DNA of 64,000 nucleotides from the human T2T-CHM13v2.0 reference genome, Homo sapiens. A program made the translations under genes and the position numbers. Where the stretch lies: NCBI RefSeq assembly GCF_009914755.1, contig NC_060926.1. One strand, given 5' to 3'. The notes under the pieces were generated by a model. It searched no databases, was not told the origin of the DNA, and saw only the letters and a program-made list of their open reading frames with translations. This document shows, in pieces, positions 1,209 through 50,014 of this stretch; positions within the stretch are counted from its first letter, which is position 1, and each line of letters starts with the position of its first letter.

Positions 1209-4785
<3,577 letters not shown>

Positions 4786-5056
4786 TATTGATTCTTGACC
4801 AAATCAGCTATTAATAGGGCGGTTACCAAGTGGTGGTTCTCTAACTTATCCCTCCTTCATTGATTAGTGGGTCAGTGGTCACTCTGCGGTAAGGAAGACT
4901 TCTCTCTTTGCTATTTATTTATTCAGGTATATCAGTGTGGATCAGGGGGCTGGGGGGGAGGTATGCATTGTGCTATTGAACAAGTTGTAATCTCTCCCTG
5001 CTCTCGTTGATTTTGATATCCAGATTGCCCCTGGCTAGGCCAGCGGGAGCCTGTAA

Positions 5057-5224
<168 letters not shown>

Positions 5225-5252
5225 TGAGCTGGTCAAAAGAAACTGTTCAGCC

Positions 5253-5560
5253 AGCTGGGCATGGTGGCTCATGCCTATAATCCCCAGCACTTTGTGAGGC
5301 CGAGGTGGGCAGATCATCTGAGGTCAGGAGTTTGGGACCAACCTGGCCAACATGGTGAAACCATGTGTCTACTAAAAATACAAAAATGAGCCGGGCACGG
5401 TGGCAGGCGCCTGTAATTTCAGCTACTCAGGAGGCTGAGGCAGGAGAATCACTTGAACACAGGAGGTGGAGACAGCAGTAAGCTGAGATAGTGCCATTGC
5501 ACTCCAGCGTGGGTGACAGAACTGGACTCCATCTCAAAAAAGAAAAGAAAAGAAAAAAGA
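5253..5560 (+). mobile_element. AluS
   Basis: Full dimeric Alu with A-rich tail. Confidence 0.9.
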
Positions 5561-6225
5561 AACTGTTTAGCCACCTTCCACTATGTGGGGCAGAGTCCCA
5601 GAGGCGGCCCCTCAGCCCGGGGCTGATTCTAAATTGTTGGTATTTTCCTGCTGTGACATTTAGAAAACATGAAAGTAAATCTGCCCACCCTTCTAACTTG
5701 TATGTCATTGATGGCGTTTTTCATCCCAGGATCCCCTGTCCATGGAAGTTGTTTCGTTTTGCCTGTGGTGAGGCAAAATTGTTGCAGAGGCTTTTGGTTT
5801 CCATGACACTGAATGGTGAGGGGTCTGTGCAGCCTCCACAGGCCTTCCATTGATTCAGGGGATCCAAGTAGTAGGTGACAGATTTCCTTGTCTGCCCAGA
5901 GGGGCTCCAGCCTGTCAGGATGGTATGGGCTGGCTCACTTCCTGAGTGCTGGTCAGCTCCCAGGTCCTGGCTGTGTCTTCTAGGCACACATCAGAGAGAT
6001 TCAGCAGGTGCCGCTTCTGACGCTGGATCCTGGGGCTGACTTGGTAGCCACAGCCTTGCTTTTGACAGCCTGACATGTAGATAAGATAGGATTCTATCTC
6101 CCATCTTGTATATAACTCCTAGTATTTGGGGTGCTACACTTTTTGAAGCCTCCATACCGTTTCACAGCATCCTCGCAGGGTGGAATGGTAAGAACCGTTG
6201 CCCCTGTTCACAGAGGGGACCATGA

Positions 6226-7280
<1,055 letters not shown>

Positions 7281-7310
7281 ATGGTTTGACTAGCTAATGC
7301 TTTTTTGCAG

Positions 7311-7382
7311 GTTTTTGTTGAAATGTGGCTTCATCACTATTCGTTGGAGATGTATCAAAAAATGCAGTCCCCTCATGCCAAG
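7311..7382 (+). pseudogene. SMPD4BP: SMPD4-like exon [24 protein letters not shown]
   Basis: ttgcag|GTT and AAG|gtatgt; 72 nt. Confidence 0.9.
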
Positions 7383-10300
7383 GTATGTTTCCACAGTTTT
7401 TCTTCCCACCTCCTGCTTCTGACCCTGCTCAGCCTGCTGCTTCTTATCCTGCCTCGGAGTGAGTTTTCACAGGCTGGATGGTGGGAAGCAGAAACCCACC
7501 ACCCACCTGTCACTCAGAAGCCGAGTAAGAAGTGGGCATCATTCTCTAGTTTCCGGTGGCGGGCAGGGGGCATTGCACACTGACGTGTAGACACTTGAGG
7601 CCTGGAAGTCTGGCCTTTCCGGGGCCCTCCCTGTGCAGCTTCCTGAGCCCCCTCCCTGGCAGCGGGAACAGATGAGGTTGTGGTGCTCTTGCTCTGGGGG
7701 TGGGGGGAGCTGCAATGCCTCTGGGAGCCACTTTCTCGTCTGTCTCCTTGACCATCAGCAGTCTTTGTGCTTTCCCACGAAGGGGTGGCCTGGAGCCTTC
7801 TTTGCCTGCTCCCCCTACTCCCCCACCTCCTCCAGAGCATGAGCAAGCAGCCCTTCTCGTGGCGAGTGGCACCTGGTGCCCCCCTGCATGCAGCCTGGCT
7901 TGCCTCCTCTCCCTCCGCCTCGCCTCTCCCCACTCTCTCTCTGGGCAGCCTGCTGCCTTCAGATGCATGGAGGTGGCGGAGGCCCTGGGTTGTTACTGCT
8001 GTTGCCGTTCCTGGAGCTAGCACCACCCCTGGACCGGTCAGAGTGAGAAAGCAGCTAGGTGAACCTTAGATCTCCAGTCAGTCATCTCCATGGAGCAGCT
8101 TGACTCATGCCCATCCATGCCCTTGCCTGAAGTGGCATCAGCCACGTAGTCTGGTGCCCATGGCGTCTGTGCATCAGTATGCTTGGGAAACTTTGGCTTT
8201 GTCACTGACAGAATTATTGAGGGCTTCCTCCAGAATGTGGGTGATGGAGTTAAACTTCAGAAGAGCATCCTGTCACTTTTCCTCTGGTTCTGGCAAAGAG
8301 CTGTGGGTCTGCTTCTGCCACAGTCTGCAGCCAGTTCCATGGCCCCATGCTTTGCCATGTGGAGGCTCTCTCAGAGCATAGGGTCCCCCAAATCCTCACC
8401 CTCAGAATCACATGGGTGGAGAGTGGGGAAAAGCTGAGGACCCCATCTTGGGCCTCTTGAGTCACGAAGAGCCTGCAGTGCCCTTCCTGCTTCCAGAGCA
8501 GACTTGCTGCATGTCCCTGGCTGGTGCCTGGGGGCCTGGTTATTCCCCGGGCCCGCTCCTCCCGCAGGGCTCTGGGACACTCACTCAGCACTCGTGCATG
8601 TGGCGTGGCGTGGCCTGGCAGGGGCAGGGGCCACTGCACCGCATTGTGTTCCTGTTGCTCCTTCTGCCTTCTGAGGGAGTGTAGTAAGCACACCTACTTT
8701 CAAGAGTCAGCCAGAAAGGCTCTTTTGGGCTGTCACCTGTGAGGATTCTGTGTCCTCACGGGCCAGAGGAAGGGCAGGGGGCTGTCCCTGTGGAGGGCAG
8801 GAGGTGCAGTTCCCTTCTTCCCCACATTTGCTTCCTCTTGGCCAGACGTTGGGGTAGGTGGGCCCTGCCCAGAATACCTTGCAGTAGCCGGACCAAGTAC
8901 CCAGAGACGCTCCACTCTTCGCCTCTTCCAGTTCAGGCAAAACACAAAACGCAAGAAAACTTGGTGGGTGGGAGTCAGAGAAAGGCAGCTGTGGAAGTCT
9001 GTGTCTCCCAAGGCTTCTTGTCGCTTGCCCAGGCCTGTGCTACACGTACTGCCATACAGAAATCCCTGCCCGTCCCCACTAGACCTTATTTTCAGATGCA
9101 GGAAGTGAGGCTCCTGGGGTCATCCTCCTCACCCTGCTTGAGTCCAGGATGCGTGCTTGCTCCCCAGTGGCCCTGTGGGCAGTAAGGATGGCCATGGCGC
9201 TGTAGGCCACTGTGTTCCTGCAAGCAAGGGCAGAGCCACACTGGGGAACTATGTGTCTGATTCCTCCCTGAGCCCCAGGTCTGGCACAGAGGAAGGCTGT
9301 GGAGGGCAACACCTTCCTGCCCTGCTCCTTCCCTCCCTGCTCTGCGTGTCATGGCGACTGGCGTGTGTTCTGATTTCTCCTGTGTGGAGCCCAGTGGGTG
9401 TGCTGCTTGGGCAGGAGGCATGCTGCTGGCGGGGCAGGATGTGCACCAGGCCGGCTGTGGCTGCACTGGGCTGAAGGGGTGCTTCGGCAGGCCGTGGTGC
9501 TGCAGGGCAGCAGCTCGGAGGGTCCTGGCTAGGAGCCAGCTCAGCCTCAGGTTCCTGCTGCCTCTGGGTGTGTGTGGCTGTGGCCAGATCCTCAGGGGCT
9601 CCCGCCCTTGGGAACCCACTGTATGTGGAGGGTGGGAGTTTCTGGTGCGGTAGGAGAGGCTGCCTCCAGCAGTCAGAGCTGATGTGCACACCACCTTAGC
9701 TGACGTCCAGACTATGAGGGTGGAGGGCAGGGCCTGGTGGCCTGAGCCTGTGCTCCTCGTCTCTGTGCTACCCTTGGGGACCTGTCCTCGCCCTCAGTTC
9801 TCAGAGAGCCAGTCATGGAGGGGACATTGATTTGAGTTTTAGACACATAGGAATCAATCATGTCTTATACCAATTTGGTAAATTTCTTAAGACAACCCAG
9901 GGAAATCCAGTCAATTCCACATGTGTCTTTTCTGGGCAGAGTCTTCCTCCTGGAACATGCTCCGCTGGTTTCTTTTCTGAGCCTCAGGATCTTGAGGTCT
10001 TGGTGGCTGGCAGCGTGTCCCAGTGAGGGCCCTGGGCTCTTGGAGGGCTCTGGGTTGCATGTGCCACACATAGTGTGACTTCAGAGTCACTGGGGAGAGT
10101 GGGTCCCATCTTGAAGGGCAGTGAGTTGGGCCCTTCCAAGGAGCTAGAGAGGCCTTTAGGCCCCAGCAATACTGAGGGGCCACCCAGGTGACCTGGAGGC
10201 CCCTCTGCCCGGGCCTCCAAAGCGAGGACAGTATGGCCACAGCCCTGGCCTGGCTGCGGAGGCGGGTGCTGCGCTGGCCCGCGGCTGCTGGGACTGCAAT

Positions 10301-33124: not shown

Positions 33125-36509
<3,385 letters not shown>

Positions 36510-38107: not shown

Positions 38108-40416
38108 CTGAAATCATATCAAGTATCTTTTCTGACCACAGTGGAATAGTACTAGAAATCAATAACAGGAGGAAAAACTGTACAAATACATGGAAATTAA
38201 AATACATGCTCATGAACAATAAATAAATAAATGAAAAAAATAAAAAGAAAATTAAAAATTTATTGAAAAAAGAATAGAAACACAACATAACAAATCCTGT
38301 GGGATGCAGCAAAAGCAGTTGTAAGAGGAAAAAGGCATAGGTATAAATGCCTACATCAGAGAAGTAGAAAGATCTCAAATAGCTAACCTGACAGTATACC
38401 TGAAGTAATGAGAAAAACGAGAAAAATAAAATGCTAAAATTAGTACAAAAAATATCATAAAGATTAGAGAAGAAATTTTAAAAATAGAAACAAAAAATAC
38501 AAAAAGTCAATGGAACAAAGAGCTGGATTTTTTAGAAAAAAATCAAAACTGACAAGCTTTAACTAGACTAAGGAAAAGAAAAAGAAAACAAAATCATAGA
38601 TGAAAAACGAGACATTACAATTGATAACAGAAATATGAAGGATTATACGAGATTACTAAAAACACCTATATAAAAACAAGTTGGAAAATCTAGGAGAAGT
38701 GATAAATTTCTGGACACATAACAAATTCCCAAGATAGAATGATAAACAAAAAACCGGAACAGATCAATAATGAGTAATGTAATCAAAGCAGTAATAAAGT
38801 CTTCTGTCAAACAAAAACACAAGAATCACGGTTTTACTGCTGAATTCTACCAAACGTTTTTAAAAGCGCTAATACCAATTTTACTCAAAATATTCCCCAA
38901 AAAATGAAGACAAAGTAAGTCTTCGAAACTTGTTCTATGAGGAGAGCATGACCCTGGTACAAAAACCAGACCAGGAAACAACACAAAAAGAAAACCACAG
39001 GCATTTTAAATATCCCTGATGAACACAGATGCAAAAAAATCCTCAGCAAAATACTTGAAAATTGCACTTGACAACACAATAAAAAGATGATCTGCCATGA
39101 TCAAGTGGGATTCATCCCAGGAATATGAGGATGATTCAATAAAACACAAATAAATAAATGTGCGACATCACATTCAGCGAATCAAGAACAAAAACCATAT
39201 AATCATTTCAGTAGATGCTGAAAAAATAAAAAAACATTCCTTCATGACAAAAACTGAACAACATGAGTACAGAAGGAACATATCTCAGTGCAATAAAGGC
39301 CATATATGACAAACCCACAGCTAACATCATAATCAATGGGGAAAGGTTAAAACTCTTCCTCTAAGGCCTGGAACGAGTGTGGCTACTTTTACACCACTTT
39401 TATTCATCATAGTACTGGAAGTCCTAGGTAGCGCAATTAGACAAGAGAATGCAATAAAAGGCATCCAAATTGGAAAAAAGAAAGTCAAGCTCTCTCTGTT
39501 TGCAGGTGACATGATCATATATATATATACACATAGAGAAACAGAGAACCCTAAAGATTCCACAAAATCACCTACTAGAAATAATTTAGTCAAGTTGCAA
39601 GATACAATATCAACATATAAAAATGAGTAGCACACTCATGCACCAATAATGAAATACCTAAGAAATGAAGACAGCTATTTCATTACCAAAATAATTATAT
39701 CTAGGGATAAACTTAACCAAAAAGACAAAAGATCCCACAATGAAAACTATAAAACACAGATGAAAGCTATTAAAGCAGACACAAGTAAATGGAAAGATAT
39801 CCCATGTCCATGCACTAGAAGAATATTGTTAAAATATCTATATCACCCAATGTGATCTAGAGTCAATGCAATCCATGTTAAATTACAAAAGACATTCTTC
39901 ATAGAAATAGAAAAAAATATCCTAAAATTCACATGGAAAAGCAAAATATCTCAGATAGACAAAAGAATCTGGAATAAAAAGAAAAGCTGGAGGCATCACA
40001 CCTGACTTCAAAACATACTACAAATCTGTAGTAAGCATGGTAATACCAAAACAGCATAATACTATCAAAAAAAGGGGCGGGGGAGAAACAGAGAAACGAA
40101 GGAATGACAGACATAGACAAGTGAAACAGAATAGAGAAATCAGAAATAAATTCACGCATTTATGGTGTACTCATTTTTAACAAAGGCACCAAGAACACAC
40201 ATTCGGGAAGGAAGGACAATCTCTTCAATAAACTGCTAGGATAACTCAACACCCACATGTACAGGAATACATCTAGGCCGTTATCTTACCATATACAAAA
40301 ATCTACTCAAAATAAAGATTTAAATGTAGGACCTGAAACTATAAAACTACTAGAGAAGAAAACATAGGATAAATCCTTCATGAAACTGGTTAGGACAAGG
40401 AATTTTCAAATAGACA

Positions 40417-40509
40417 TCAAAAGCACAAGCAACAAAAGCAAAGATGTAATTACATTAAACTTGTCAAAAGCACAATCAACAAAAGCAAAGATGTAATTAC
40501 ATAAAACTT
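40417..40509 (+). repeat. 47-bp tandem duplication inside L1
   Basis: TCAAAAGCACAA.CAACAAAAGCAAAGATGTAATTACAT.AAACTT x2. Confidence 0.85.
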
Positions 40510-40669
40510 AAAAACTTCTGCAAAGCACAGGAAGAAATCAGTAGAACGAAGAAACAACCCAGAGAATAGAAGAAAGTATTTGCAAACTATCCATCAGCCA
40601 AGGGGTTAATACACAAAATATATAAATAACTACTCAAAAGCAAAAATACAAATAATCTGATTTAAAAAA

Positions 40670-41870
40670 ATCTACCCCAAATCTTTGTCTCCCACCATTA
40701 TTTTCCCACCTTCTTTTCCCGACCACCTTTGGCCTCCTCCCCCTCGCCACCCGTTTTCTTCCTCCATCTACCCCAAAACTTTTTCCCCACCATCATTTTG
40801 CAAAGCCTTCTCTGCTCTCTCACTCACCACCCTTTTCCCCATCCATTTACCCAAACACTTTCCCCACTGGTTTTTCCCACCGTCTTTTCCCCTTCTCCCT
40901 GGCCACGTTCTTTTTCCCCATCCCACTCTCATCACCCTCTTTTGCTCCTTCATCTAAGCAACAACGTTTTCTCCCGTCTTTTCCCAAAGCCTTCTCCTCA
41001 CTCCTGCCGCTCAACACTGTCTTTTCGCCCTTCATCTACCCAAAAACTGTTTTCCTCATCGTCTTTTCCCCCCGTTCCTCCTTGCCACTTCTCCATCTAC
41101 CCGAAAACATTTCCCCATAGTCTTTTCGCAAAGCCTTCTCCCCACTCCTGCTCACCTCCCTCTTTTCTCTCTCCATCTATCCCCCAGAATATTCCCCACC
41201 GTCTTTTCAGTCTTCCCCCCTTCCCATTCATCCTCTTCTTTGCCCTATCCTGCTTGCCACTCTCTTTTTTACCTTCCATCTACCCCAAACTACTTTCCCA
41301 TTTTTTCCCAACTCTCTTTCCCTGCTCCCTCTCATCACCCTCTTTCCTCCTCCTCGTTACCCTCTTTCCCCCCTCCATCTACCCAAACACTTTTTACCCA
41401 CTGTCTTTTTTTTCTCCACCGTCTTTCTTTCCTGCCCACTATCTTTTTGCAAAACCTTGTCTTTCTCCCGCTGGCTACCCTTTTCCCTTCCCCCACCTGT
41501 TACCCTCTTTTCCCCCTCTATCTTCCCAAAACCTTTTCTCCCCACTGTCTTTTCACAAAACCTTCTCTCCCTACTGCTCAACGCTGTTTCTCCCCCCGAC
41601 CATCCTCTCTTTCCTCCTCCCCTTGACACCCTCTTTTCCTCCTCCATCTACCCATAAACTTTTTACCCACCATCTTTCTGCAACACCTTCCCTCCTTCGC
41701 GCTCCCCACCCTGTTTTTCCCCCACCATCTACCCAAAAACTTTTTTTCCCACCATCTTTTCCCCACCGTCTTTTTGCAACGCGTTCTCCTGCTCGCTAAC
41801 TTCTTTTCCCTTTGGGACTAACCACCCTCTTTACCCCCTCCATCTATCCCAAAACTATTTTCCTCTTCTT
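40670..41870 (+). repeat. Degenerate C/T-rich minisatellite
   Basis: About 13 copies of a CCATCTACCC(A)AAAC..TTTTCCCCACC.TCTTTT core at 60-140 bp spacing; very G-poor on +. Confidence 0.8.
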
Positions 41871-42040
41871 ACCGCTCCCGCCGCACTGCCATCTCGGTCG
41901 CGGTCACCACCAGTTGCAGCGAGGCGAACCACAGTGGAGCGGCTCCAGCCTCCAATTACCCATTCCCGGTCCTCTAAGCCGGTCACTGAGCAGCTCCATA
42001 AGAAAGTACGGGAACCTGGAAGGGCCTGCCTTCCCTTCGG

Positions 42041-42301
42041 GAGCATTCATATACTGAGGTTATATATATATATGAGGGTTCCTGGACTGCATGTTCTGAT
42101 TGGATGAGAAAAACCCTCCAGGGTTACTCTGATTGGACTTTATTATCATGTTCTGATTGGATGAGAGCAAGTCTTGAGACAACCAATCACAGCATGAAAA
42201 TAAAGTCCAATCAGAGTAGGCCTAGAGGTTTTTTCTCTCATCCAATCAGAACATGTAGTCCAGGAACTGCATGTGCGCGACCTCAGTACGTAAAGCATGC
42301 T
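42041..42301. promoter_or_regulatory. Palindromic CCAAT-box cluster, putative bidirectional promoter
   Basis: ATTGG at 42099, 42132, 42156; CCAAT at 42183, 42207, 42242. Arms 42078-42160 and 42183-42267 are reverse complements. TATA-like sequence at 42049-42073. Confidence 0.7.
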
Positions 42302-42604
42302 GAGGCGGTGTCAGGTCATTTTAGGCTCTTCAGTTTCGCGTTTGGTATCCGGCATGGCTGCCACCTGTTTCTGGCTGGAGCCTCGGACACTGGCTCACTG
42401 CAGTTGGTGGTGTCGACAGAGCGGTAGGAGGGCGGCGGGCAGCAGGAGCTTCTCCTGCTGGGCAGGAAGACGAGTAGAAGGGAGCGGCACCGAGGCATGC
42501 TGGAGGCTGGAGCCTGAGCCACCCCGGCTCGCCTCGCTGCGGTTGGTGGTGACCTCGGACACTGCAGCTCGGCCAGAGTGGTAGAAATGTCCTGGTGTAG
42601 GTGA

Positions 42605-43250
42605 GTCAGCTGGGGATGCACTGCCCGCATGTGGGGGCAGGGGTTGGGTGTCCTATTGGGGCTCACTCCCCGAGGCTGCACTGCCTGTGTCAGGGGGCTG
42701 GTTGGGGGCACTCTCCGAGGTTGCATTGCTGGCGGTGGGGGTGCGGTGTTGGCTGGCTATCTGGGGCTACACTGCCCACGGTGGCGGGGGTGGTGGGCGG
42801 GGGAGGCAGGTTGTGTGCACTAACGTGTACTGCTGGTGGCGGGGGATGGGTTAGGGGCGCTATTTTCTGCTGCACTGCCCAGGGCAAGGAGTGGGTTGGG
42901 TGGTTATTCGGAGCTACGATGCTGGTAGTGGGGGGTGGTTTAGGAGTGTTGTCAGGTGTTGCACTGCCCTTGCTCAGGGTGCACTATCAGGAGCTCCCCT
43001 ACCCGTGGCGGGGTGGGGGCGGCGATTTTGGGGCACTGTCTTGTGCAGCAACACCTGTGGCTGGGTCAGGTTGTGGGCACTATTGGGTGCTACACTGCCT
43101 GTGGAGGGGGTGGTTGGGGGGGTATTGGGGTTACACTGCCTGCAGCTGGCACAGGGTGTGTTGGGTGTGCTGTCCGAGGGCTACACTGCCGGCGGCAGGG
43201 GTCAGGTTAGGGTTGCTATGGGGGCTATACTGCCAGTGGTGTTGGTCGGC
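42605..43250 (+). repeat. Degenerate G-rich ~40-bp minisatellite
   Basis: More than 10 copies of GGG(G)CT(A/G)CACTGCC separated by G-runs. Confidence 0.75.
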
Positions 43251-43822
43251 TGCAGAGGTGGTGGGGACAGCAACAGCCATGGTCTCCTTGCTCCTTCGGG
43301 TGACTCTTCTCCTTTCCGTACTCCAGACTCTAGAGGGTGATCTCTTCCTGCTCGTGCAATCTTGAGCATGGCAGGACCCCCACACCCACTGCGGTTCTCC
43401 GGCCTGCACCTCCCGCCCACACCCCATGCTCTGTGTTGGGGAGACCACCTGGGACTACCGGGTGGGGATTAGTGGGCATCGCGGGGGACTGTGGGAACAG
43501 GGCACTGTGGGTGGAGGTGTCAGGAACGGGAACCAGCAGTTGAGTGGGGAGGGCTGGCTGGGTCTGAGTTTCTCCTACTCCTGCTCCCCAAGGAGTGCAG
43601 CCCTGGTGGGCCCAGCAATTTCTGGCCAGTTGCACCTGGATGGGGGTGGTTTCAGCATAGGCACTCACACCCGCCCCAGTTCCTGGCCACCTTTTGCCAG
43701 AAAGAGAGGCTGGACTTCGGTGGGTGGGTGTGAGTGCCTTAGCTGAAGCTGGTCCCTGCCACCCAGTGGCCAGCATGACAAGGTGAGGCTCTAACGTTAC
43801 CACTCCCTGCATCCCATTCTAG

Positions 43823-43990
43823 GCTTTTCTGGCTTTGCCCGTCTAGCTGCTCCAAGCCAGGCTGGAGGAGGAGGAGAAGGAATCACCTGTGGTACGCTGG
43901 AGCCTGCATGTGGCGTGACTCTGCAGCTCGCCTCATGTGATTGGTGGCAGCCACAGAGACTGCAGCTCGACAGGAGTGGTAGGAGGGTGC
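43823..43990 (+). pseudogene. BAGE-like exon remnant
   Basis: FLALPV*LLQARLEEEEKESPVVRW (43826-43900) versus recalled BAGE [23 protein letters not shown]; preceded by a CTAAC branch site and ttctag acceptor. Confidence 0.6.
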
Positions 43991-44307
43991 CCGCGGGGGC
44001 AAGGTGGTAGGAACCTTGTAGGGTGGGCTGCTGCATTGACGGCGACAGCAATTGTATTGGCATTGGTGCTAGTGGTGGTAGTGGCAGCAAGTCTGGGGGC
44101 CGGGAAGGGGGAGTAGGAGCGCTGCAGGGCCCAGCCCAACCTGGGGTGGGGAGGAACCTGCGGGTGCTGTACCATGGGCCTCGGTGGCAGTGGTGGAGGT
44201 GCACTTAGGGAAAGGGGTCCTCCCCCTTCTTTTGCAGTCTCTGGAGAGTGCCCTCCTTCTGAGCTAGGCGTGAGGGGCAGCATTGTCTCATTCTTAACAA
44301 AGTTTAG

Positions 44308-44663
<356 letters not shown>

Positions 44664-45042
44664 ATTTTTTCCTTCTTTTTTGTTGTGATAGTCTTGGACT
44701 TTTTCAAATTTCGTGAATTGGGGAGGGGATAAAAGGTGTCATTATAGGCCTTCTAATTCCTGCACCTGTTCTTTTTGCTTTTCCTAGTTTGTATATTCTT
44801 CTCATCTTCTTGTTCCTCTTCATTTTCTTTTGCTGCTGCTTCTATTTCATGTTTCTATTCTTGTTTCTCCTCCTCTTTTTGTTTTCTTTATGCCAAGCAA
44901 TGGCCTTAACAAACAACAAGCCAAAATTGTCATTGTGTTGTATTTTTAAAATAACTGGTCCCTTACTGTGTTTTAGGGATGAGAAAAAAAATCAGTTGTA
45001 TAATTAGTTACTTGAATAGCTATGCTTTCATGATCGTGTTAA

Positions 45043-45193
45043 CCCGCTTATGCTTAGCGTTCCAATAATGTTCCATTATTGGAACACTAAGCATGAGGGA
45101 GTTACTTACATCCTACTGCTCAAGGTCATTGACAAGGTCTGATTATTCACTCAGGCAAAAATTCAAAAAATTACAGCCTCTGGCATAAATGGG
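45043..45193. mobile_element. MER85 (piggyBac/PGBD3-derived MITE)
   Basis: TTAA|CCCGCTTATGC...GGCATAAATGGG|GTAA termini; internal GTTCCATTATTGGAAC palindrome and CCTACTGCTCAAGGTCAT. Confidence 0.85.
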
Positions 45194-45337
45194 GTAATGC
45201 ATTGTAAGTAGTTATTCAGAGAATCAAAAAATGAAGCATCACATAAAATATTGGTAGCAAACAGCCATTTCATCTCTCTCACATATTTGGAGCTATGCAA
45301 GAGTCACGGGGTAAGTTCTAATTTATGAGATTATTAA

Positions 45338-46092
<755 letters not shown>

Positions 46093-46889
46093 ATGTATGT
46101 TTTAAGGCAAAGATTCACAACCAAAAAACAAGGCTTTATTAACTTCTGTATCTAGGAACTTGCAGTGTTGAGCCCTCTTTTATTCCTAGTATTACTACTT
46201 TCGGTGTGAACTTTTTATCTTTATTTTACTGATTCCTCTAGAAGTTTATGCATTTTCTTGACTGCTTTAAAGACAATCTATATTGTCTCATTTTTCAAGC
46301 CCATAGAAATGTGTAAGGCCTATAATTTGGACACTTGTTATTTTTAAGGTTATGAGCATGTAGTATACTGTTGATACATGGAAGAATATGTATAAATACC
46401 ACTAGATAGCTTATATTGAAGAGATAATATCTAAATTTTTGTCCAGAGTTGATTGGGTGCAGTTTCTTAGCTGTGTTTCTTAATACATTGTGTCCATGTT
46501 TTAAAGCATATAGAAATTTGAATACTGTTTAACCTCATATAGTCCTTGTTTATAGGTTTAATATTTCTAAAGACTAAAGACATAACAGCTCCCTTTAACA
46601 TACAGTAATACTAACAAAATTTGAGATATACAGGGTTAGAATCCAACAAATTCAAAGGAAAATTGTTAAATTATATAGCTGTAGAGCAGGAATGAAACCC
46701 AGGTTCTAAGTTCCAAGGGGGCCATGAGCTACCATACAGGTGCATCAGTGACTGGGCATAGAGTTGGCGAAATTATGTAAAAGAGTGAGCTGTGGATCCT
46801 AATTATGTGAACATGAATTTTTGAACTGCATGGTGCCTCAGTTTATCCATCATTGCAGTGGGGACAGTAGTAAGTTTTTTTCTGCTCAG

Positions 46890-47830
46890 TTGTCTGAATT
46901 ATTACCCCGGTCTGTCTTGTTGCCACTCTTGATGCCCACATGAGAGGATCTAAGGTAATTTCTGACACCTGGGACTCCTTAAGGAAAAACAAGATTCCAC
47001 AAACCCCGTTTTAGGAGAAACCTCTGTTTTCGCCATGGAACCCCAATAACTTTAAGCAGACAGGTCTCTCTCAAAAATCTAAGGCTCTCTTCTGTTTTGC
47101 CTTGCATTGTCTGACCTTTTTGGTTTGGGTGGGCATCAGAAATTAGTAGGGGAGAGAGATCTAAAGAAAATTGTGGATATGAAGATGTATTTATTGTAAG
47201 AAATGTTATGAAGGAAAGAAATGTTATATGAGAGAGGATCTTATATGGCAAATGGTTGTCCTAAAGTAGAATGACTAATTACGAAAGAGGGAAATACAGG
47301 ACAGGTCAGATAAATTTAATCATGTTGTAGATGGTCTGTGGAAGTTGTGTTATGGTTCATAAAATGGGAAAGAAAATCTTAACAACTGCTAGATCTTTTC
47401 TTGTCTAGAAGTGTTGTGCATGTGATGTATATATAATGGCTTGGCTTAAAAGAAAATGAAAGCTCTTAAATATTTTGTCAGAAAAATAGAAGCTGTAATG
47501 CCTTTTATTTCATGTGACTTCAGTGATCTTTGGGAAATAAAGACAGTGTTAAATCAGTTAAAATCAGTGGTAAAATAAAAATATCTTCAAAATTTATCCA
47601 TTTGGTCTAATTGAAGTCAGAGGTTAAGTTTTAGAAGCGCTTTAATGTCATAAATTGATTCTTTGACTTTGGAAAATAGTTTCATTTACCTGGTTTGGAG
47701 CCGTTAGATTTCTAGATAAGGTCTCCGGACAGGTGGAGTTAGCCATGTCTCCTAGCTATGCTGGAAAGAGTCAGATTTTATCTGCAGTTCTGTCTTGTAT
47801 CCTAGACTCTGCGCCTGGTATGCAATTAAA
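46890..47830 (+). mobile_element. ERV1 (MER4-group-like) internal fragment
   Basis: Non-coding AT-rich text resembling MER4-group internal sequences; family assignment uncertain. Confidence 0.45.
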
Positions 47831-48734
47831 ACTTACGCTGCTGCTAATCTCTGGGTTCCATTTAAAATCCTTCCATCACATGAATACTATCCCCTGTACT
47901 AAATTTTTCCACAATTAAATACTTAGAATCATTTTTGCTGACTTGACCCAACCATTAGTGATATATTTTAAAAACGCTTATAATGTGTCACAATATATTT
48001 AGCAAATGTAGGGAATGACATTTTTACTTTTGTCAGCATTTACATAGCATTTATGTAGCAATGCTATCTCAAGTATTTTTAGTCATTTAAATGTTAGATA
48101 ATAGATATGCTTTTGATTCCTTTGTTTCTATGTAAATATAATTATGAGATATTTAGTAAATAGTATCAATTACATGTTTCACTTATAGAATATACTAATA
48201 AAGTTAGGATTATTTTTATATGCTACATCATATTTACTTGTTGGCTTTACAATAAGTTAGAAATAATATTCTGGATTAACTGTGTGACTCATGAGAGGGA
48301 GTTTGTGCAAGTATAGTCTTTCCAAATTTTTACTAGATTTTTCAAGACTTAACGCTAGAACTGTGAGAACAAGGTAATAAATAAGCATATCTGTTAATAT
48401 CACCTTTGGTCAACTCTTGGCTAGACCCAATGATAATGTAGGAATTAACATAACTTTTCCTACTAAAGGTGTTGGATTTGTTCTGAGAGACCACAAAGTC
48501 ATTGACAAAGTTTAAAAATCATTAGATTAAAAACTTATAGTGCGTTTGAAATTGTTTTGTAGAAAAATATCCTGGTTTACATTGATAGGTTTTTTTTTTA
48601 TAAGAACTAGATCAAGAGAAAGGGAGAGTAGTGATAAATGTCCATGTTTTCAAGTTGAAAAGTAACAGTGTATTACAACAGATGGATTTGATGTCAAATT
48701 ACAAATGCTGAGAACATTATATGTAATTGACTTG

Positions 48735-49985
48735 CCAGAGTAATTATACAAGGCAAAGAAAGGAAAGGCATCTAAATAGGAAAGGAAGGGGTGAGATTGT
48801 CTGTGTTTTAGACTCCACAAAAAACCCCTTATAGCTGATAAACGCTATATTCAATAAAGTTGAAAGTTACAAAATTAACATACAAATAGTATTCTGGTTT
48901 CTATACACCAATGACAAACTATTATCTGAAAAATAAGATAATTCCATTTATAGTAGCAACAAAACAAATATATAAATAAAAGAGCAAAGAGTAATTTTAA
49001 TGAAGGATGTGAACGATTTGTATACTGAAAATTATAGCACATTGATGAAAGAAATTGAAAGTGACAAATAGAAAAACATCCTATATTTATCAATTGAAAA
49101 AATTAATATTGTTAAAATTTCAATGCTATTCAAAGCATTCTACAGATTAAATGCAACCACTATCAAATTCCAATGTCATTCTTCACAGAAATGAAAAATT
49201 AGTCCTAAAATCTGAATGGAACCACAAAAGACGCTGAAAAACCAAAGCAATCTTTAGCAAAAAGAACAAACCTGGAGGCATCAGACTACCTAATATTTGA
49301 CAAAGCAAACAAAAGAAAATGGGAAAGGACACCCTATTCAAATATGGTGCTGGCATAATTGGCAAGCCACATGCAGAAAAATGAAACCATTCTTCAAAAG
49401 GTTAAATACGGAATTACCACATGACTCAGTAAATTCAGTACTATGTATACACTAAAAATAAATTAAAACAAATGCCTCACACATACAAGTATTTATAGCA
49501 ACAAAAAGTAGGAAATAACAGAAATGTCCATGAATTTTGGAGTGGATTAATAAAATGTGGTCTGTCCATAAAATAAAATATTATTTGGCAATGAAAAAGA
49601 AAAACATATTAATACATGCTCCAAAATGGATGAACATTGGAAACATGATAAATGAAAGTAGTGAGTCACACGTAACTATATTATTATGATTCCACTTACG
49701 TGAAATGTCCAGAATAGGCAAATCCTTCCAGAATAGGCAAATTCTTAGGAAGTAGATGGATGATTGCCTAGGGCTGGGAGGGGTTTAAAGGAAGAATGGG
49801 GAAAATGGGAAAAGATTGCTAGTGGGTGCAAGGTTTCTTTTAAGGAGCGTGAAAATGTTCTAAAATTACATTGTGGTGATTGTTTACCCAGTTAATACAG
49901 TTAAAAAAAAGTGAATTTTATACTTTAAATGGGTGAGTTAAATAATATATAAATTATATCTCAGTGAACCTGTGAAAAAAGTTAA
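48735..49985 (+). mobile_element. Old L1 (L1MB-like), ORF2 3' fragments and 3' UTR
   Basis: aaatgtccagaataggcaaatc...aaaatgttctaaaatt...aattatatctca 3' end motifs. Confidence 0.75.
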
Positions 49986-50014
49986 AAAATATGTGGTATG
50001 CATAAACAAAAAGT

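What the first reader, a model, noticed from the sequence alone, without database searches (positions are those of the whole stretch)
41865..42606. Palindromic six-CCAAT bidirectional promoter with mirror-image BAGE-like first exons
Seen: two ~85-bp arms (42078-42160, 42183-42267) are reverse complements around a ~22-bp spacer, giving three ATTGG then three CCAAT boxes (spacings 33/24 and 24/35 bp). The symmetry extends outward (TACTGAGGT 42052-42060 / ACCTCAGTA 42280-42288, with TATA-like sequence). Beyond that, the same ~90-bp unit (GGAGGCTGGAGCC...TCGCCTCGCTGC..TGGTGGTG...GAG(C/T)GGTA(A/G)) lies on - at ~41870-41960 and on + at ~42370-42430 and ~42500-42590. Each side has a splice donor pointing outward (- strand GCG|GTAAGA at 41873/41872; + strand TAG|GTGAGT at 42600/42601). 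Recalled: the - strand text GAGCTGCTC..CCGGCTTAGAGGACC..GGAGGCTGGAGCC resembles the BAGE cancer-testis 5' UTR. Inference: a head-to-head inverted duplication built a self-contained, NF-Y-driven, cruciform-capable promoter/first-exon cassette. Carried by segmental duplications, it could switch on neighbouring sequence in both directions in germ line or demethylated tumours.
Basis: partly seen in the sequence, partly recalled or inferred. Interest (0 to 1): 0.8.

Follow-up and report, generated by a model that had tools for sequence, protein, structure and literature searches.

The report
Known palindromic REP522 promoter repeat
The mirror-image six-CCAAT element is real, but it is one of about 60 copies of an already described human repeat (REP522), the one that supplies the promoter and first exon of the BAGE cancer-testis genes, so it is an accurate observation of a known thing.

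Summary
A 190-bp palindrome (42078-42267) carries three ATTGG then three CCAAT boxes, flanked by mirrored TATA-like relics, mirrored exon-like units and outward splice donors.

It is not unique. A 29-nt core word finds 60 loci on 13 chromosomes of this genome, each set in kilobases of shared flank.

Three links tie it to known things:
- A published BAGE primer sits about 90 bp beside a complete palindrome at 10 of its 12 genomic sites.
- The published miR-5701 sequence lies exactly inside two chr15 palindrome copies, and a preprint places that miRNA in the Rep522 repeat.
- REP522 is described in print as about 1.8 kb, "largely palindromic", and enriched among the most cancer-activated CAGE promoters.

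Two results appeared in no text I could read. The core is almost free of CpG and changes about 3.3-fold more slowly than its flanks across 42 copies. There is no compensatory change between the arms, which fits protein binding rather than a hairpin.

NF-Y binding and activity of this particular copy remain untested. Its two TATA boxes are degenerate and no gene is annotated on it.

Verdict: already known kind, low to moderate interest.

The parts
40407..44324 (.). Extent of the multi-kb unit shared with the other copies. Homology continues past an insertion, up to 50000, in the chr14 and chr22 copies.
   Evidence: chr14 and chr22 copies align to query 4408-8325 (window 40407-44324) at 84-85%; 13 of 19 loci align in one piece over more than 3 kb at 75-93%.
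40650..41866 (-). Intron-like tract downstream of the leftward exon. It is pyrimidine-rich on the + strand (purine-rich on -), with degenerate repeats spaced about 60-200 bp.
   Evidence: families D1-D8. GC skew -0.67 to -0.86 and AT skew -0.3 to -0.55.
41867..41875 (-). Outward splice-donor-like site GCG|GTAAGA.
   Evidence: GGTAAG or GGTAGG is kept at this place in 34 of 44 aligned copies (my count).
41873..42030 (-). Leftward exon-like unit, including CTTAGAGGACC (41978-41968), the GGAGGCTGGAGCC unit and GGTGGTG. The predicted transcription start site is about 42005-42030 (inferred).
   Evidence: (I3, I6). The start site is inferred from the TATA position and from the '+32' name of the published primer.
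42046..42053 (-). Degenerate TATA-like site, reading TATATGAA on the - strand. The family consensus is TATATAAA.
   Evidence: TATAAA is kept on this side in 19 of 44 copies (my count).
42078..42163 (.). Left arm of the palindrome with three ATTGG boxes (42099, 42132, 42156). It contains an exact 20-nt internal duplication at 42090 and 42147.
   Evidence: (I1, I2, D14).
42140..42158 (+). 19-mer that matches the published miR-5701 sequence at 17 of 19 bases.
   Evidence: Exact copies lie in the chr15 palindromes.
42164..42179 (.). Central spacer between the arms, conserved like the arms.
   Evidence: 1.12 changes per site over 16 columns.
42180..42267 (.). Right arm with three CCAAT boxes (42183, 42207, 42242).
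42287..42295 (+). Degenerate TATA site, TACGTAAAG. The family consensus is TATATAAAG.
   Evidence: TATAAA is kept on this side in 23 of 44 copies (my count). BAGE-type copies carry a 6-bp deletion here.
42315..42600 (+). Rightward exon-like region with two units (about 42370-42430 and 42500-42590). Donor-like sites lie at 42423|42424 (GCG|GTAGGA) and 42600|42601 (TAG|GTGAGT). The predicted transcription start site is about 42315-42335 (inferred).
   Evidence: (D17, D18). AGGTGAGT is exact in 21 of 44 copies; 12 copies are not aligned at this point.
42601..43300 (+). G-rich degenerate repeats spaced about 90-150 bp, downstream of the rightward exon.
   Evidence: families D5, D6, D9-D12. GC skew +0.18 to +0.42. 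G4-type motif at 43106-43130.

Best explanation
The finding is one copy of the REP522 repeat, a palindromic unit of low copy number that was spread by segmental duplication through pericentromeric, acrocentric short-arm and a few euchromatic sites.

Its centre is a 190-bp palindrome almost free of CpG, with three CCAAT boxes in each orientation. Five of the six carry the extended CCAATCAG form. In the family consensus a TATA box sits about 115 bp out on each side, facing outwards. Beyond each TATA lies a CpG-rich, exon-like stretch built of GGAGGCTGGAGCC...GGTGGTG...GAGCGGTA(A/G)G units that end in splice donors, and then a G-rich tract on the transcribed strand.

Most likely mechanism (inferred): a CCAAT-binding factor of the NF-Y type occupies the core, which has no CpG to methylate. 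Transcription then starts outwards about 140-160 bp from the centre on both sides, and the first exons splice into whatever lies downstream. Activity is gated by methylation and H3K9me3 of the CpG-rich flanks. The copies are therefore silent in somatic tissue and can fire in germ line, early embryo and hypomethylated tumours. BAGE is the best-known product of such a copy.

Shown here: the anatomy, the copy family, the kinship with BAGE and miR-5701, and the slow change of the core. Taken from print: silencing and cancer or embryo activation of the family. Inferred: NF-Y, the transcription start sites, and any activity of this particular copy, whose TATA boxes are both degenerate.
For: Anatomy.

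Family:
- A 261-nt query finds 40 scored places out of 65 candidates.
- The 29-nt core word with up to 3 mismatches gives 83 matches and 0 in the control, which I grouped into 60 loci.
- Flanks are shared for kilobases.
- Flank-only queries return the same loci.

BAGE: the published primer BAGE.BS+32f, with its bisulphite changes reversed, hits 12 places. Ten have a complete palindrome about 90 bp away and 2 a partial one. Locus L043 reads ATG GCG GCC AGA GCG|GTAAGA, that is M-A-A-R-A followed by a donor. This fits the published peptide AARAVFLAL.

REP522:
- The BAGE locus holds a large REP522.
- REP522 is 'about 1.8 kb, largely palindromic' and enriched in the most cancer-activated CAGE promoters.
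- It is up-regulated at the 8-cell stage.
- miR-5701 overlaps Rep522. The published miR-5701 inhibitor oligo matches exactly only at two chr15 sites inside palindrome copies, which are 84-85% identical to window 42077-42259.
- miR-5701 rises after 5-Aza and TSA treatment.

Constraint:
- Parsimony changes per site across 42 copies are 0.67 in the CCAAT boxes, 1.26 in the rest of the core and 3.4-4.2 in the flanks.
- For A/T-consensus, gap-poor columns they are 1.01 against 3.37 (p = 1e-23).
- 26 of 42 copies keep all six boxes.
- Core length is 186-192 bp in 42 of 44 copies.
- The core has 0 CpG here, with a median of 1 and a maximum of 3 across copies. Flank CpG observed/expected is 0.78 and 0.68 here, against 0.29 for the whole window.
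- GC skew changes sign at the core, so both outward RNAs would be G-rich.

The hub's gene table lists RefSeq 'enhancer' features at 41979-42480 and 42481-42980.
Against: - No REP522 consensus (Dfam or Repbase) was available, so the family name rests on three indirect links, not on an alignment.
- NF-Y occupancy, CAGE and RNA data could not be consulted. No paper in the searchable library joins BAGE with NF-Y (0 papers).
- This copy has degenerate TATA sites on both sides and no annotated transcript in the hub's table.
- The slow change of the core could be partly ascertainment, because most loci were found with the core as query. Searches scored only 40 of 76 and 40 of 70 candidates.
- The slow change could also reflect lower mutability of an AT-rich stretch without CpG.
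- Box 4 is broken in 11 of 42 copies.
Confidence: 0.75

Rival explanations
1. Same repeat family, but this copy is an inert relic. It no longer works as a promoter, and the conservation of the core reflects low mutability and recent duplication rather than selection.
For: - Both TATA sites are degenerate in this copy.
- The hub's table shows no transcript here.
- The nearest paralogues, chr2:130.56 Mb and chr2:131.64 Mb, are 89-93% identical, so part of the similarity is simply young age.
- The core has no CpG, the fastest-mutating dinucleotide.
Against: - All six CCAAT boxes are intact here.
- Flank CpG observed/expected is 0.68-0.78, against 0.29 for the whole window.
- A/T-only columns still show 1.01 against 3.37 changes per site.
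- The hub's table lists RefSeq enhancer features over the element.
- BAGE-type copies lack the right-hand TATA and are still expressed genes according to the literature.
Confidence: 0.2
2. The palindrome matters as DNA structure. A hairpin or cruciform would stall replication or promote breakage and so help spread or rearrange the duplicated segments.
For: - The single-strand hairpin energy is very strong (-73.5 kcal/mol, z = -14.95).
- All copies sit in duplication-rich regions.
- Some copies have lost an arm: L041, L045 and L047 lack a hit spanning the centre, and L032 and L046 carry internal deletions.
Against: - There is no compensatory change between the arms. The covariation score is 0.078 against 0.079 in shuffles, and 9 pairs changed on both sides against 7.6 expected.
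- Arms within a copy are no more alike (82.6%) than arms of different copies (81.9%).
- A 16-nt spacer and roughly 12-17% mismatch work against extrusion.
- The spacer is as conserved as the arms.
Confidence: 0.05
3. The palindrome is a genuine microRNA precursor of the mir-5701 type, and its conservation is due to that.
For: - The published miR-5701 sequence lies in the left arm of the chr15 copies and matches 17 of 19 bases here.
- The element folds as a long hairpin.
Against: - Conservation covers all 190 bp, including the spacer, and is strongest in the CCAAT boxes. It is not limited to a 22-nt duplex.
- There is no covariation.
- The preprint lists miR-5701 among putative miRNAs that merely overlap repeats.
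- The predicted transcription start sites point away from the hairpin.
- Rfam gives only matches to unrelated hairpin families, all below their thresholds.
Confidence: 0.03
4. It is a small non-autonomous DNA transposon (a MITE) that inserted independently at each site.
For: It is a compact palindrome of about 190 bp and nearly constant length, next to a TA-rich stretch at 42062-42073.
Against: - Every examined copy shares flanks well beyond the palindrome, up to several kb.
- Flank-only queries find the same loci.
- No copy was seen with the palindrome alone and unrelated flanks.
- No target-site duplication is evident.
Confidence: 0.02

Closest known systems
REP522 repeat (RepeatMasker class Satellite/telo)
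   Same: - Described as about 1.8 kb, largely palindromic, unclassified and interspersed, and as enriched among the most cancer-activated CAGE promoters.
- Present at the BAGE locus and overlapped by miR-5701.
- Up-regulated at the 8-cell stage.
- The element here is palindromic, multi-copy and linked to both of those markers.
   Different: No alignment to the REP522 consensus could be made. In this copy recognisable symmetry reaches only about +/-410 bp from the centre. It reaches about +/-300 bp in BAGE-type copies and about +/-2.2 kb in the chr22:32.59 Mb copy. The passages I could read do not mention the CCAAT boxes, the TATA sites or the slow-changing core.
BAGE gene family 5' end (promoter and exon 1)
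   Same: A palindromic six-CCAAT core lies about 90 bp upstream of the published +32 primer site at 10 of its 12 sites. The exons are built of the same units, with the same GCG|GTA(A/G)G donors.
   Different: The window copy is only 74-77% identical to BAGE-type loci. It lacks the full primer site and the M-A-A-R-A start. It belongs to a different branch of the family tree, the chr2/chr14/chr22/chr13 group. BAGE-type copies carry a 6-bp deletion that removes the right-hand TATA.
hsa-mir-5701 (annotated miRNA on 15q11.2)
   Same: Its sequence is part of the left arm of the same palindrome in two chr15 copies. It is reported to be de-repressed by 5-Aza and TSA, as expected for a copy silenced by methylation.
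   Different: The window copy differs at 2 of 19 bases. Whether any copy is a real miRNA is doubtful.
LTR12 / ERV9 LTRs as NF-Y-bound, multi-CCAAT repeat promoters
   Same: A repeat family that carries several CCAAT boxes, is bound by NF-Y and keeps its CCAAT boxes under apparent pressure (passages of PMC3730095).
   Different: LTR12 is a retroviral LTR that spread by retrotransposition and is not palindromic. The element here spread inside duplicated segments and is a two-way palindrome. NF-Y binding to it is not shown.
Mrps12/Sarsm bidirectional promoter with an array of four CCAAT boxes
   Same: A non-transcribed core under 200 bp, with CCAAT boxes that NF-Y reads in either orientation to drive two divergent genes.
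   Different: That promoter is a single-copy, TATA-less CpG island of housekeeping genes. It is not a palindrome and not silenced by methylation.

Membership tests
REP522 repeat | Alignment to the REP522 consensus (a RepeatMasker or Dfam call) | not testable with these tools
   No Dfam or Repbase library is on hand. The hub's table gives no repeat family names.
REP522 repeat | Largely palindromic unit of about 1.8 kb | tested here: met
   Central inverted symmetry is 190 bp plus outer units to +/-410 bp here, about 590-620 bp in BAGE-type copies, and arms out to about 2.2 kb in L034.
REP522 repeat | Present at the BAGE locus | tested here: met
   One search gives the print statement. The palindrome lies beside 10 of the 12 published BAGE primer sites, with a partial copy at the other 2.
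REP522 repeat | Overlaps hsa-mir-5701 | tested here: met
   One search gives the print statement. The oligo matches exactly only inside the chr15 palindrome copies.
BAGE gene | Carries the published BAGE 5' primer site | tested here: not met
   There are 0 matches in the window within 3 mismatches. Only the first 11 nt are exact.
BAGE gene | Open reading frame starting M-A-A-R-A at the exon-1 donor | tested here: not met
   It is seen in L043. The window reads differently on both sides.
BAGE gene | Downstream exons derived from MLL3/KMT2C | not tested
   Known to me only from the titles and reference lists seen. No MLL3 sequence was compared.
NF-Y-dependent bidirectional promoter | CCAAT boxes in both orientations with NF-Y-type flanks | tested here: met
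   There are six CCAAT boxes, five of them as CCAATCAG. They are kept in 31-41 of 42 copies, depending on the box.
NF-Y-dependent bidirectional promoter | NF-Y occupancy in cells | not testable with these tools
   No ChIP data are available. The supplement of PMC3730095 could not be read.
NF-Y-dependent bidirectional promoter | Divergent transcription start sites and CCAAT-dependent activity | not testable with these tools
   There is only indirect support: family-level CAGE statements and the hub's enhancer features.
mir-5701 microRNA | Mature sequence present in a hairpin | tested here: inconclusive
   17 of 19 bases match in the left arm and the hairpin is strong. No processing evidence exists, there is no covariation, and no Rfam family reaches its threshold.

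The most novel reading that the evidence does not exclude
The 190-bp, CpG-free, six-CCAAT core is kept by purifying selection in some 40 or more paralogues. The reason would be that it is an NF-Y landing pad that methylation cannot block directly. Each duplicated REP522 copy would then be a ready-made two-way promoter, gated only by the chromatin of its CpG-rich flanks, and used in germ line and at embryonic genome activation.

On this reading 'mir-5701' is a promoter palindrome mis-annotated as a miRNA. The family may descend from the 5' region beside an RFPL gene on 22q12, where early-branching copies lie (midpoint-rooted tree).
Probability: 0.3. Interest if true: 0.5.

Novelty: already known. 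Interest (0 to 1): 0.3.

Why it matters
The element shows how a segmental duplication can carry its own two-way, cancer-testis-type promoter, and it explains where the BAGE promoter and first exon come from. That much is already in the repeat catalogues and in CAGE studies of REP522.

First, the centre of the repeat is a six-CCAAT palindrome free of CpG that changes about three times more slowly than its flanks. Second, there is no sign of selection for hairpin pairing. Third, the annotated miR-5701 hairpin is this same promoter core.

Together these give a concrete hypothesis, testable by mutation, for why REP522 copies fire together in hypomethylated tumours and early embryos. For this particular copy the practical consequence is small: no annotated transcript depends on it.

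Tried and rejected
- Contiguous coding sequence for the published BAGE peptide AARAVFLAL: none in 47 loci and none in the genome with a degenerate pattern. The likely reason is that the peptide spans the exon-1 donor.
- Rfam: 7 matches, all below their family thresholds (Phe_leader, MIR4372, mir-2483 and others). I read them as generic long-hairpin matches, not as kinship.
- Selection for hairpin pairing: tested and not found.
- Homogenisation between the two arms of a copy: not found.
- MITE reading: rejected, because the flanks are always shared.
- Open reading frames across the element: eight frames of 48-249 aa, none with any support. Not pursued.
- Reading the Kaczkowski 2016 Cancer Research paper by DOI: not held.
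- Supplement of the NF-Y ChIP paper: not readable.
- One pattern search failed on the server. I repeated it in plain letters.
- Literature searches: BAGE with NF-Y gave 0 papers. BAGE with CCAAT gave 13 papers, and none of the 10 listed titles concerns the BAGE promoter. 'REP522' gave 14 papers; I read passages in 9 and found no occurrence in the main text of a tenth. None of those passages mentions CCAAT or NF-Y.
Full report

Yes.
- The arms 42078-42163 and 42180-42267 are inverted repeats. The repeat finder splits them into a 36-nt pair at 94% and a 58-nt pair at 86%, with 16 nt between the inner ends.
- CCAAT lies on the - strand at 42099, 42132 and 42156, and on the + strand at 42183, 42207 and 42242.
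- Five of the seven CCAATCAG words in the whole 64-kb window fall inside this stretch. CCAAT as such is rarer in the window than in shuffles: 85 matches against 193.
- The symmetry continues outward through TACTGAGGT/ACCTCAGTA. It also reaches the unit at 41899-41954, which is inverted against 42501-42557 and repeated directly at about 42373-42412.
- The two outward donor-like sites read exactly as stated.
- Folded as single-stranded DNA, the 190 nt give -73.5 kcal/mol against -19.8 +/- 3.6 for shuffles, z = -14.95. Chance is excluded.

**2. Is it unique?**

No. The window lies in T2T-CHM13.
- A 261-nt query over the palindrome found 40 scored places out of 65 candidates, at 76-94% identity.
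- The 29-nt word 42200-42228 with up to 3 mismatches gave 83 matches, and none for the reversed control. I merged matches within 1 kb into 60 loci on chromosomes 2, 5, 7, 9, 10, 13, 14, 15, 17, 18, 20, 21 and 22.
- The copies are not bare palindromes. Of 19 loci fetched with 1.5-kb flanks, 13 align to window 40.5-43.8 kb in one piece of more than 3 kb at 75-93%, and the other 6 over 1.7-2.2 kb.
- With a 14-kb query (only 8 candidates scored), the chr14 and chr22 copies align from window 40407 to 44324 and again from about 44670 to 50000.
- Queries made only of the right flank or only of the left flank return the same loci (40 of 76 and 40 of 70 candidates scored).

The element therefore spread inside duplicated segments, not by transposing on its own.

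**3. Common anatomy of the copies**

I aligned 44 of the 47 loci fetched up to that point. Three (L041, L045, L047) had no hit spanning the centre.
- Core length is 186-192 bp in 42 of 44 copies. L032 and L046 carry deletions.
- Mean column identity of the 42 complete cores is 90%.
- The six boxes are intact in 40, 40, 36, 31, 41 and 40 of 42 copies. 26 copies keep all six.
- The family consensus has TATATAAAG about 115 bp to the right of the centre on the + strand, and its mirror image on the - strand to the left.
- By my count, TATAAA survives in 23 of 44 copies on the right and 19 of 44 on the left.
- In the window copy both are degenerate: TACGTAAAG at 42287-42295, and TATATGAA on the - strand at 42053-42046.
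- The strong donor AG|GTGAGT at 42600/42601 is exact in 21 of 44 copies; 12 copies are not aligned at that point.
- The left donor GGTA(A/G)G is kept in 34 of 44 copies.
- The core of this copy has no CpG. The flanks have CpG observed/expected of 0.78 and 0.68, against 0.29 for the window as a whole. Across copies the core holds a median of 1 CpG and at most 3.
- GC skew is -0.7 to -0.86 to the left of the element and +0.2 to +0.4 to the right. RNA made outwards on either side would be G-rich.

**4. Kinship with BAGE**

A paper on BAGE hypomethylation prints the bisulphite primer BAGE.BS+32f (passage). With the bisulphite changes reversed it hits 12 places in the genome, 10 exactly, and 0 in the control.
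- Ten of the 12 places have a complete palindrome about 90 bp away. For example, in L029 the palindrome is 2214-2403 and the primer starts at 2491. The other two places have a partial palindrome.
- These BAGE-type loci align to window 41860-42337 at 74-77%, and at 70-71% in the opposite orientation. Their symmetry spans about 590-620 bp.
- In locus L043 the exon reads ATG GCG GCC AGA GCG followed directly by GTAAGA. That is Met plus the first four residues of the published antigenic peptide AARAVFLAL (passage), and then a donor.
- This explains why no contiguous coding sequence for the peptide exists in the genome.

The window copy is not a BAGE locus.
- The 26-nt primer has no match within 3 mismatches; only its first 11 nt are exact, on the - strand at 41978-41968.
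- By flank type and best alignment, the BAGE exon corresponds to the + side of this copy. BAGE-type loci have it on both sides.

**5. Which known family is it?**

Three independent threads lead to REP522.
1. Ward et al. 2013 state that the BAGE locus contains a large REP522 repeat. It is covered by H3K9me3 in human liver and transcribed when human chromosome 21 sits in mouse liver (passages).
2. A meeting abstract by Kaczkowski describes REP522 as about 1.8 kb, "largely palindromic, unclassified interspersed repeat", and strongly enriched among the most cancer-activated CAGE promoters (passage). Another paper cites Kaczkowski 2016 and Horie 2017 for cancer-specific expression of REP522 and of lncRNAs driven by it (passage).
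3. A preprint lists hsa-miR-5701 as overlapping the Rep522 repeat (passage). The miR-5701 inhibitor oligo printed in a supplement matches exactly at only two places, chr15:18.857 Mb and chr15:19.728 Mb. Both lie inside palindrome copies that are 84-85% identical to window 42077-42259. Two 1-mismatch hits elsewhere (the two I fetched, on chr3 and chr4) show no homology. The window has the same 19-mer with 2 mismatches, at 42140-42158.

Other print statements fit the same picture.
- REP522 RNA rises at the 8-cell stage.
- REP522 is enriched in lncRNA exons.
- miR-5701 rises after 5-Aza and TSA treatment.

I could not align to the REP522 consensus, so the name is inferred at roughly 85-90%. In this copy the symmetry reaches only about +/-410 bp. 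In the chr22:32.59 Mb copy it reaches about +/-2.2 kb.

**6. Is the core constrained, and for what?**

I counted parsimony changes per site on a maximum-likelihood tree of 42 copies.
- CCAAT pentamers 0.67, the rest of the core 1.26, the flanks 3.4-4.2.
- Restricted to columns with an A/T consensus and at most 5% gaps, the core has 1.01 and the flanks 3.37 (p = 1e-23). The near, non-repetitive flanks have 3.35 and the central spacer 1.12.
- Caveats: most loci were found with the core as query, paralogues can exchange sequence, and repeats in the flanks may be misaligned.

The arms do not co-vary.
- With the palindrome written as 82 pairs, the covariation score is 0.078 against 0.079 in shuffles. 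Nine pairs changed on both sides against 7.6 expected.
- Arms within one copy are 82.6% alike and arms of different copies 81.9%. Left arms are 85.5% alike among themselves and right arms 89.2%. Left arms form one clade of 42 left and 3 right arms, with low support (0.32).

I draw three conclusions. The inverted duplication is older than the spread of the family. The consensus arms are 92% identical. What is conserved is the sequence of each arm, not the pairing between them. This fits protein binding sites better than a hairpin, a cruciform or a miRNA stem.

**7. Most likely mechanism**

The anatomy and the kinship are shown. The rest is inferred, or taken from print about the family.

A CCAAT-binding factor of the NF-Y type would occupy up to six boxes, spaced 24-35 bp apart, in a core that has no CpG to methylate. 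The outward TATA sites, or TATA-less initiation as in BAGE-type copies, would place the start sites about 140-160 bp from the centre. In this copy that is about 42005-42030 on the - strand and 42315-42335 on the + strand. These figures come from the TATA positions and from the "+32" name of the primer.

The unit-built first exons end in donors and can splice to whatever lies downstream. Methylation and H3K9me3 on the CpG-rich flanks would keep the copies silent in somatic cells.

Two precedents exist. NF-Y reads CCAAT in either orientation and drives a bidirectional promoter with an array of four CCAAT boxes (passages). NF-Y also binds the multi-CCAAT LTR12 repeat family (passages).

For this copy:
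- In favour: six intact boxes, retained CpGs, and the two RefSeq "enhancer" features in the hub's table (41979-42480 and 42481-42980).
- Against: degenerate TATA sites and no annotated transcript.

**8. Novelty and verdict**

The repeat family, its palindromic nature, its promoter activity in cancer and its presence at BAGE are all in print, so the finding is already known in kind.

I did not find three things in the texts I could read:
- the six-box, CpG-free core;
- its roughly three-fold slower change, without compensatory change between the arms;
- the identity of the miR-5701 hairpin with this promoter core.

My searches were 'REP522' (14 papers; passages read in 9, no main-text occurrence in a tenth), BAGE with CCAAT (13 papers; none of the 10 listed titles concerns the BAGE promoter) and BAGE with NF-Y (0 papers). 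Kaczkowski 2016 and Horie 2017, with their supplements, were not available to me and may cover these points.

Interest 0.3.

Noticed in passing
L055:2977-5761 (G000 chr22:32.822-32.825 Mb), next to the palindrome copy at L055:41-243: An RFPL-type gene lies on the + strand, starting about 2.7 kb from a palindrome copy. Pfam matches are RDM 1.9e-22, RING 2.5e-18, PRY 5.7e-15 and SPRY 1.1e-26. On that side the unit-built exon is missing. This copy and two others within 240 kb on 22q12 branch early in the midpoint-rooted tree. Whether the family began near this gene is open.
   Followed up: partly
window 40650-41870: A tract of about 1.2 kb that is almost purely pyrimidine on the + strand (GC skew down to -0.86, AT skew to -0.55), made of degenerate repeats spaced about 60-200 bp. 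It is shared by the other copies. A purine/pyrimidine mirror tract of this length could form triplex DNA. Not tested.
   Followed up: no
L041, L045, L047 (chr5:181.84 Mb, chr13:18.10 Mb, chr21:11.86 Mb); L032, L046: Some copies have only one arm of the palindrome, or an internal deletion, yet keep exon-like units on both sides. I read these as secondary deletions between the similar arms rather than the state before the duplication. This was not settled.
   Followed up: partly
L034 (chr22:32.59 Mb): In this copy the inverted symmetry extends to about +/-2.2 kb: 71% over 1195 aligned bases, at 808-1964 bp to the left of the centre against 1102-2234 bp to the right. This suggests the ancestral unit was a much larger palindrome than survives in the window.
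   Followed up: no
window 33125-35764 and 90723 onward (hub's gene table): MED15P4 lies on the - strand about 6 kb downstream of the leftward donor. POTEKP lies on the + strand about 48 kb downstream of the rightward donors. Either could in principle receive a first exon from this element. No transcript evidence was available.
   Followed up: no
window 42297-42584 (+): An ATG-started frame of 95 aa runs through the rightward exon-like units. It contains an internal M-A-A start at 42354 and the residues WRLEPE, which are encoded by the GGAGGCTGGAGCC unit. There is no evidence that it is translated.
   Followed up: no
window 43106-43130, 43451-43511 and 44317-44364: Two G-quadruplex-type motifs lie on the + strand inside the G-rich repeats. 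A (GT)24 run lies at the point where homology with several copies is interrupted.
   Followed up: no
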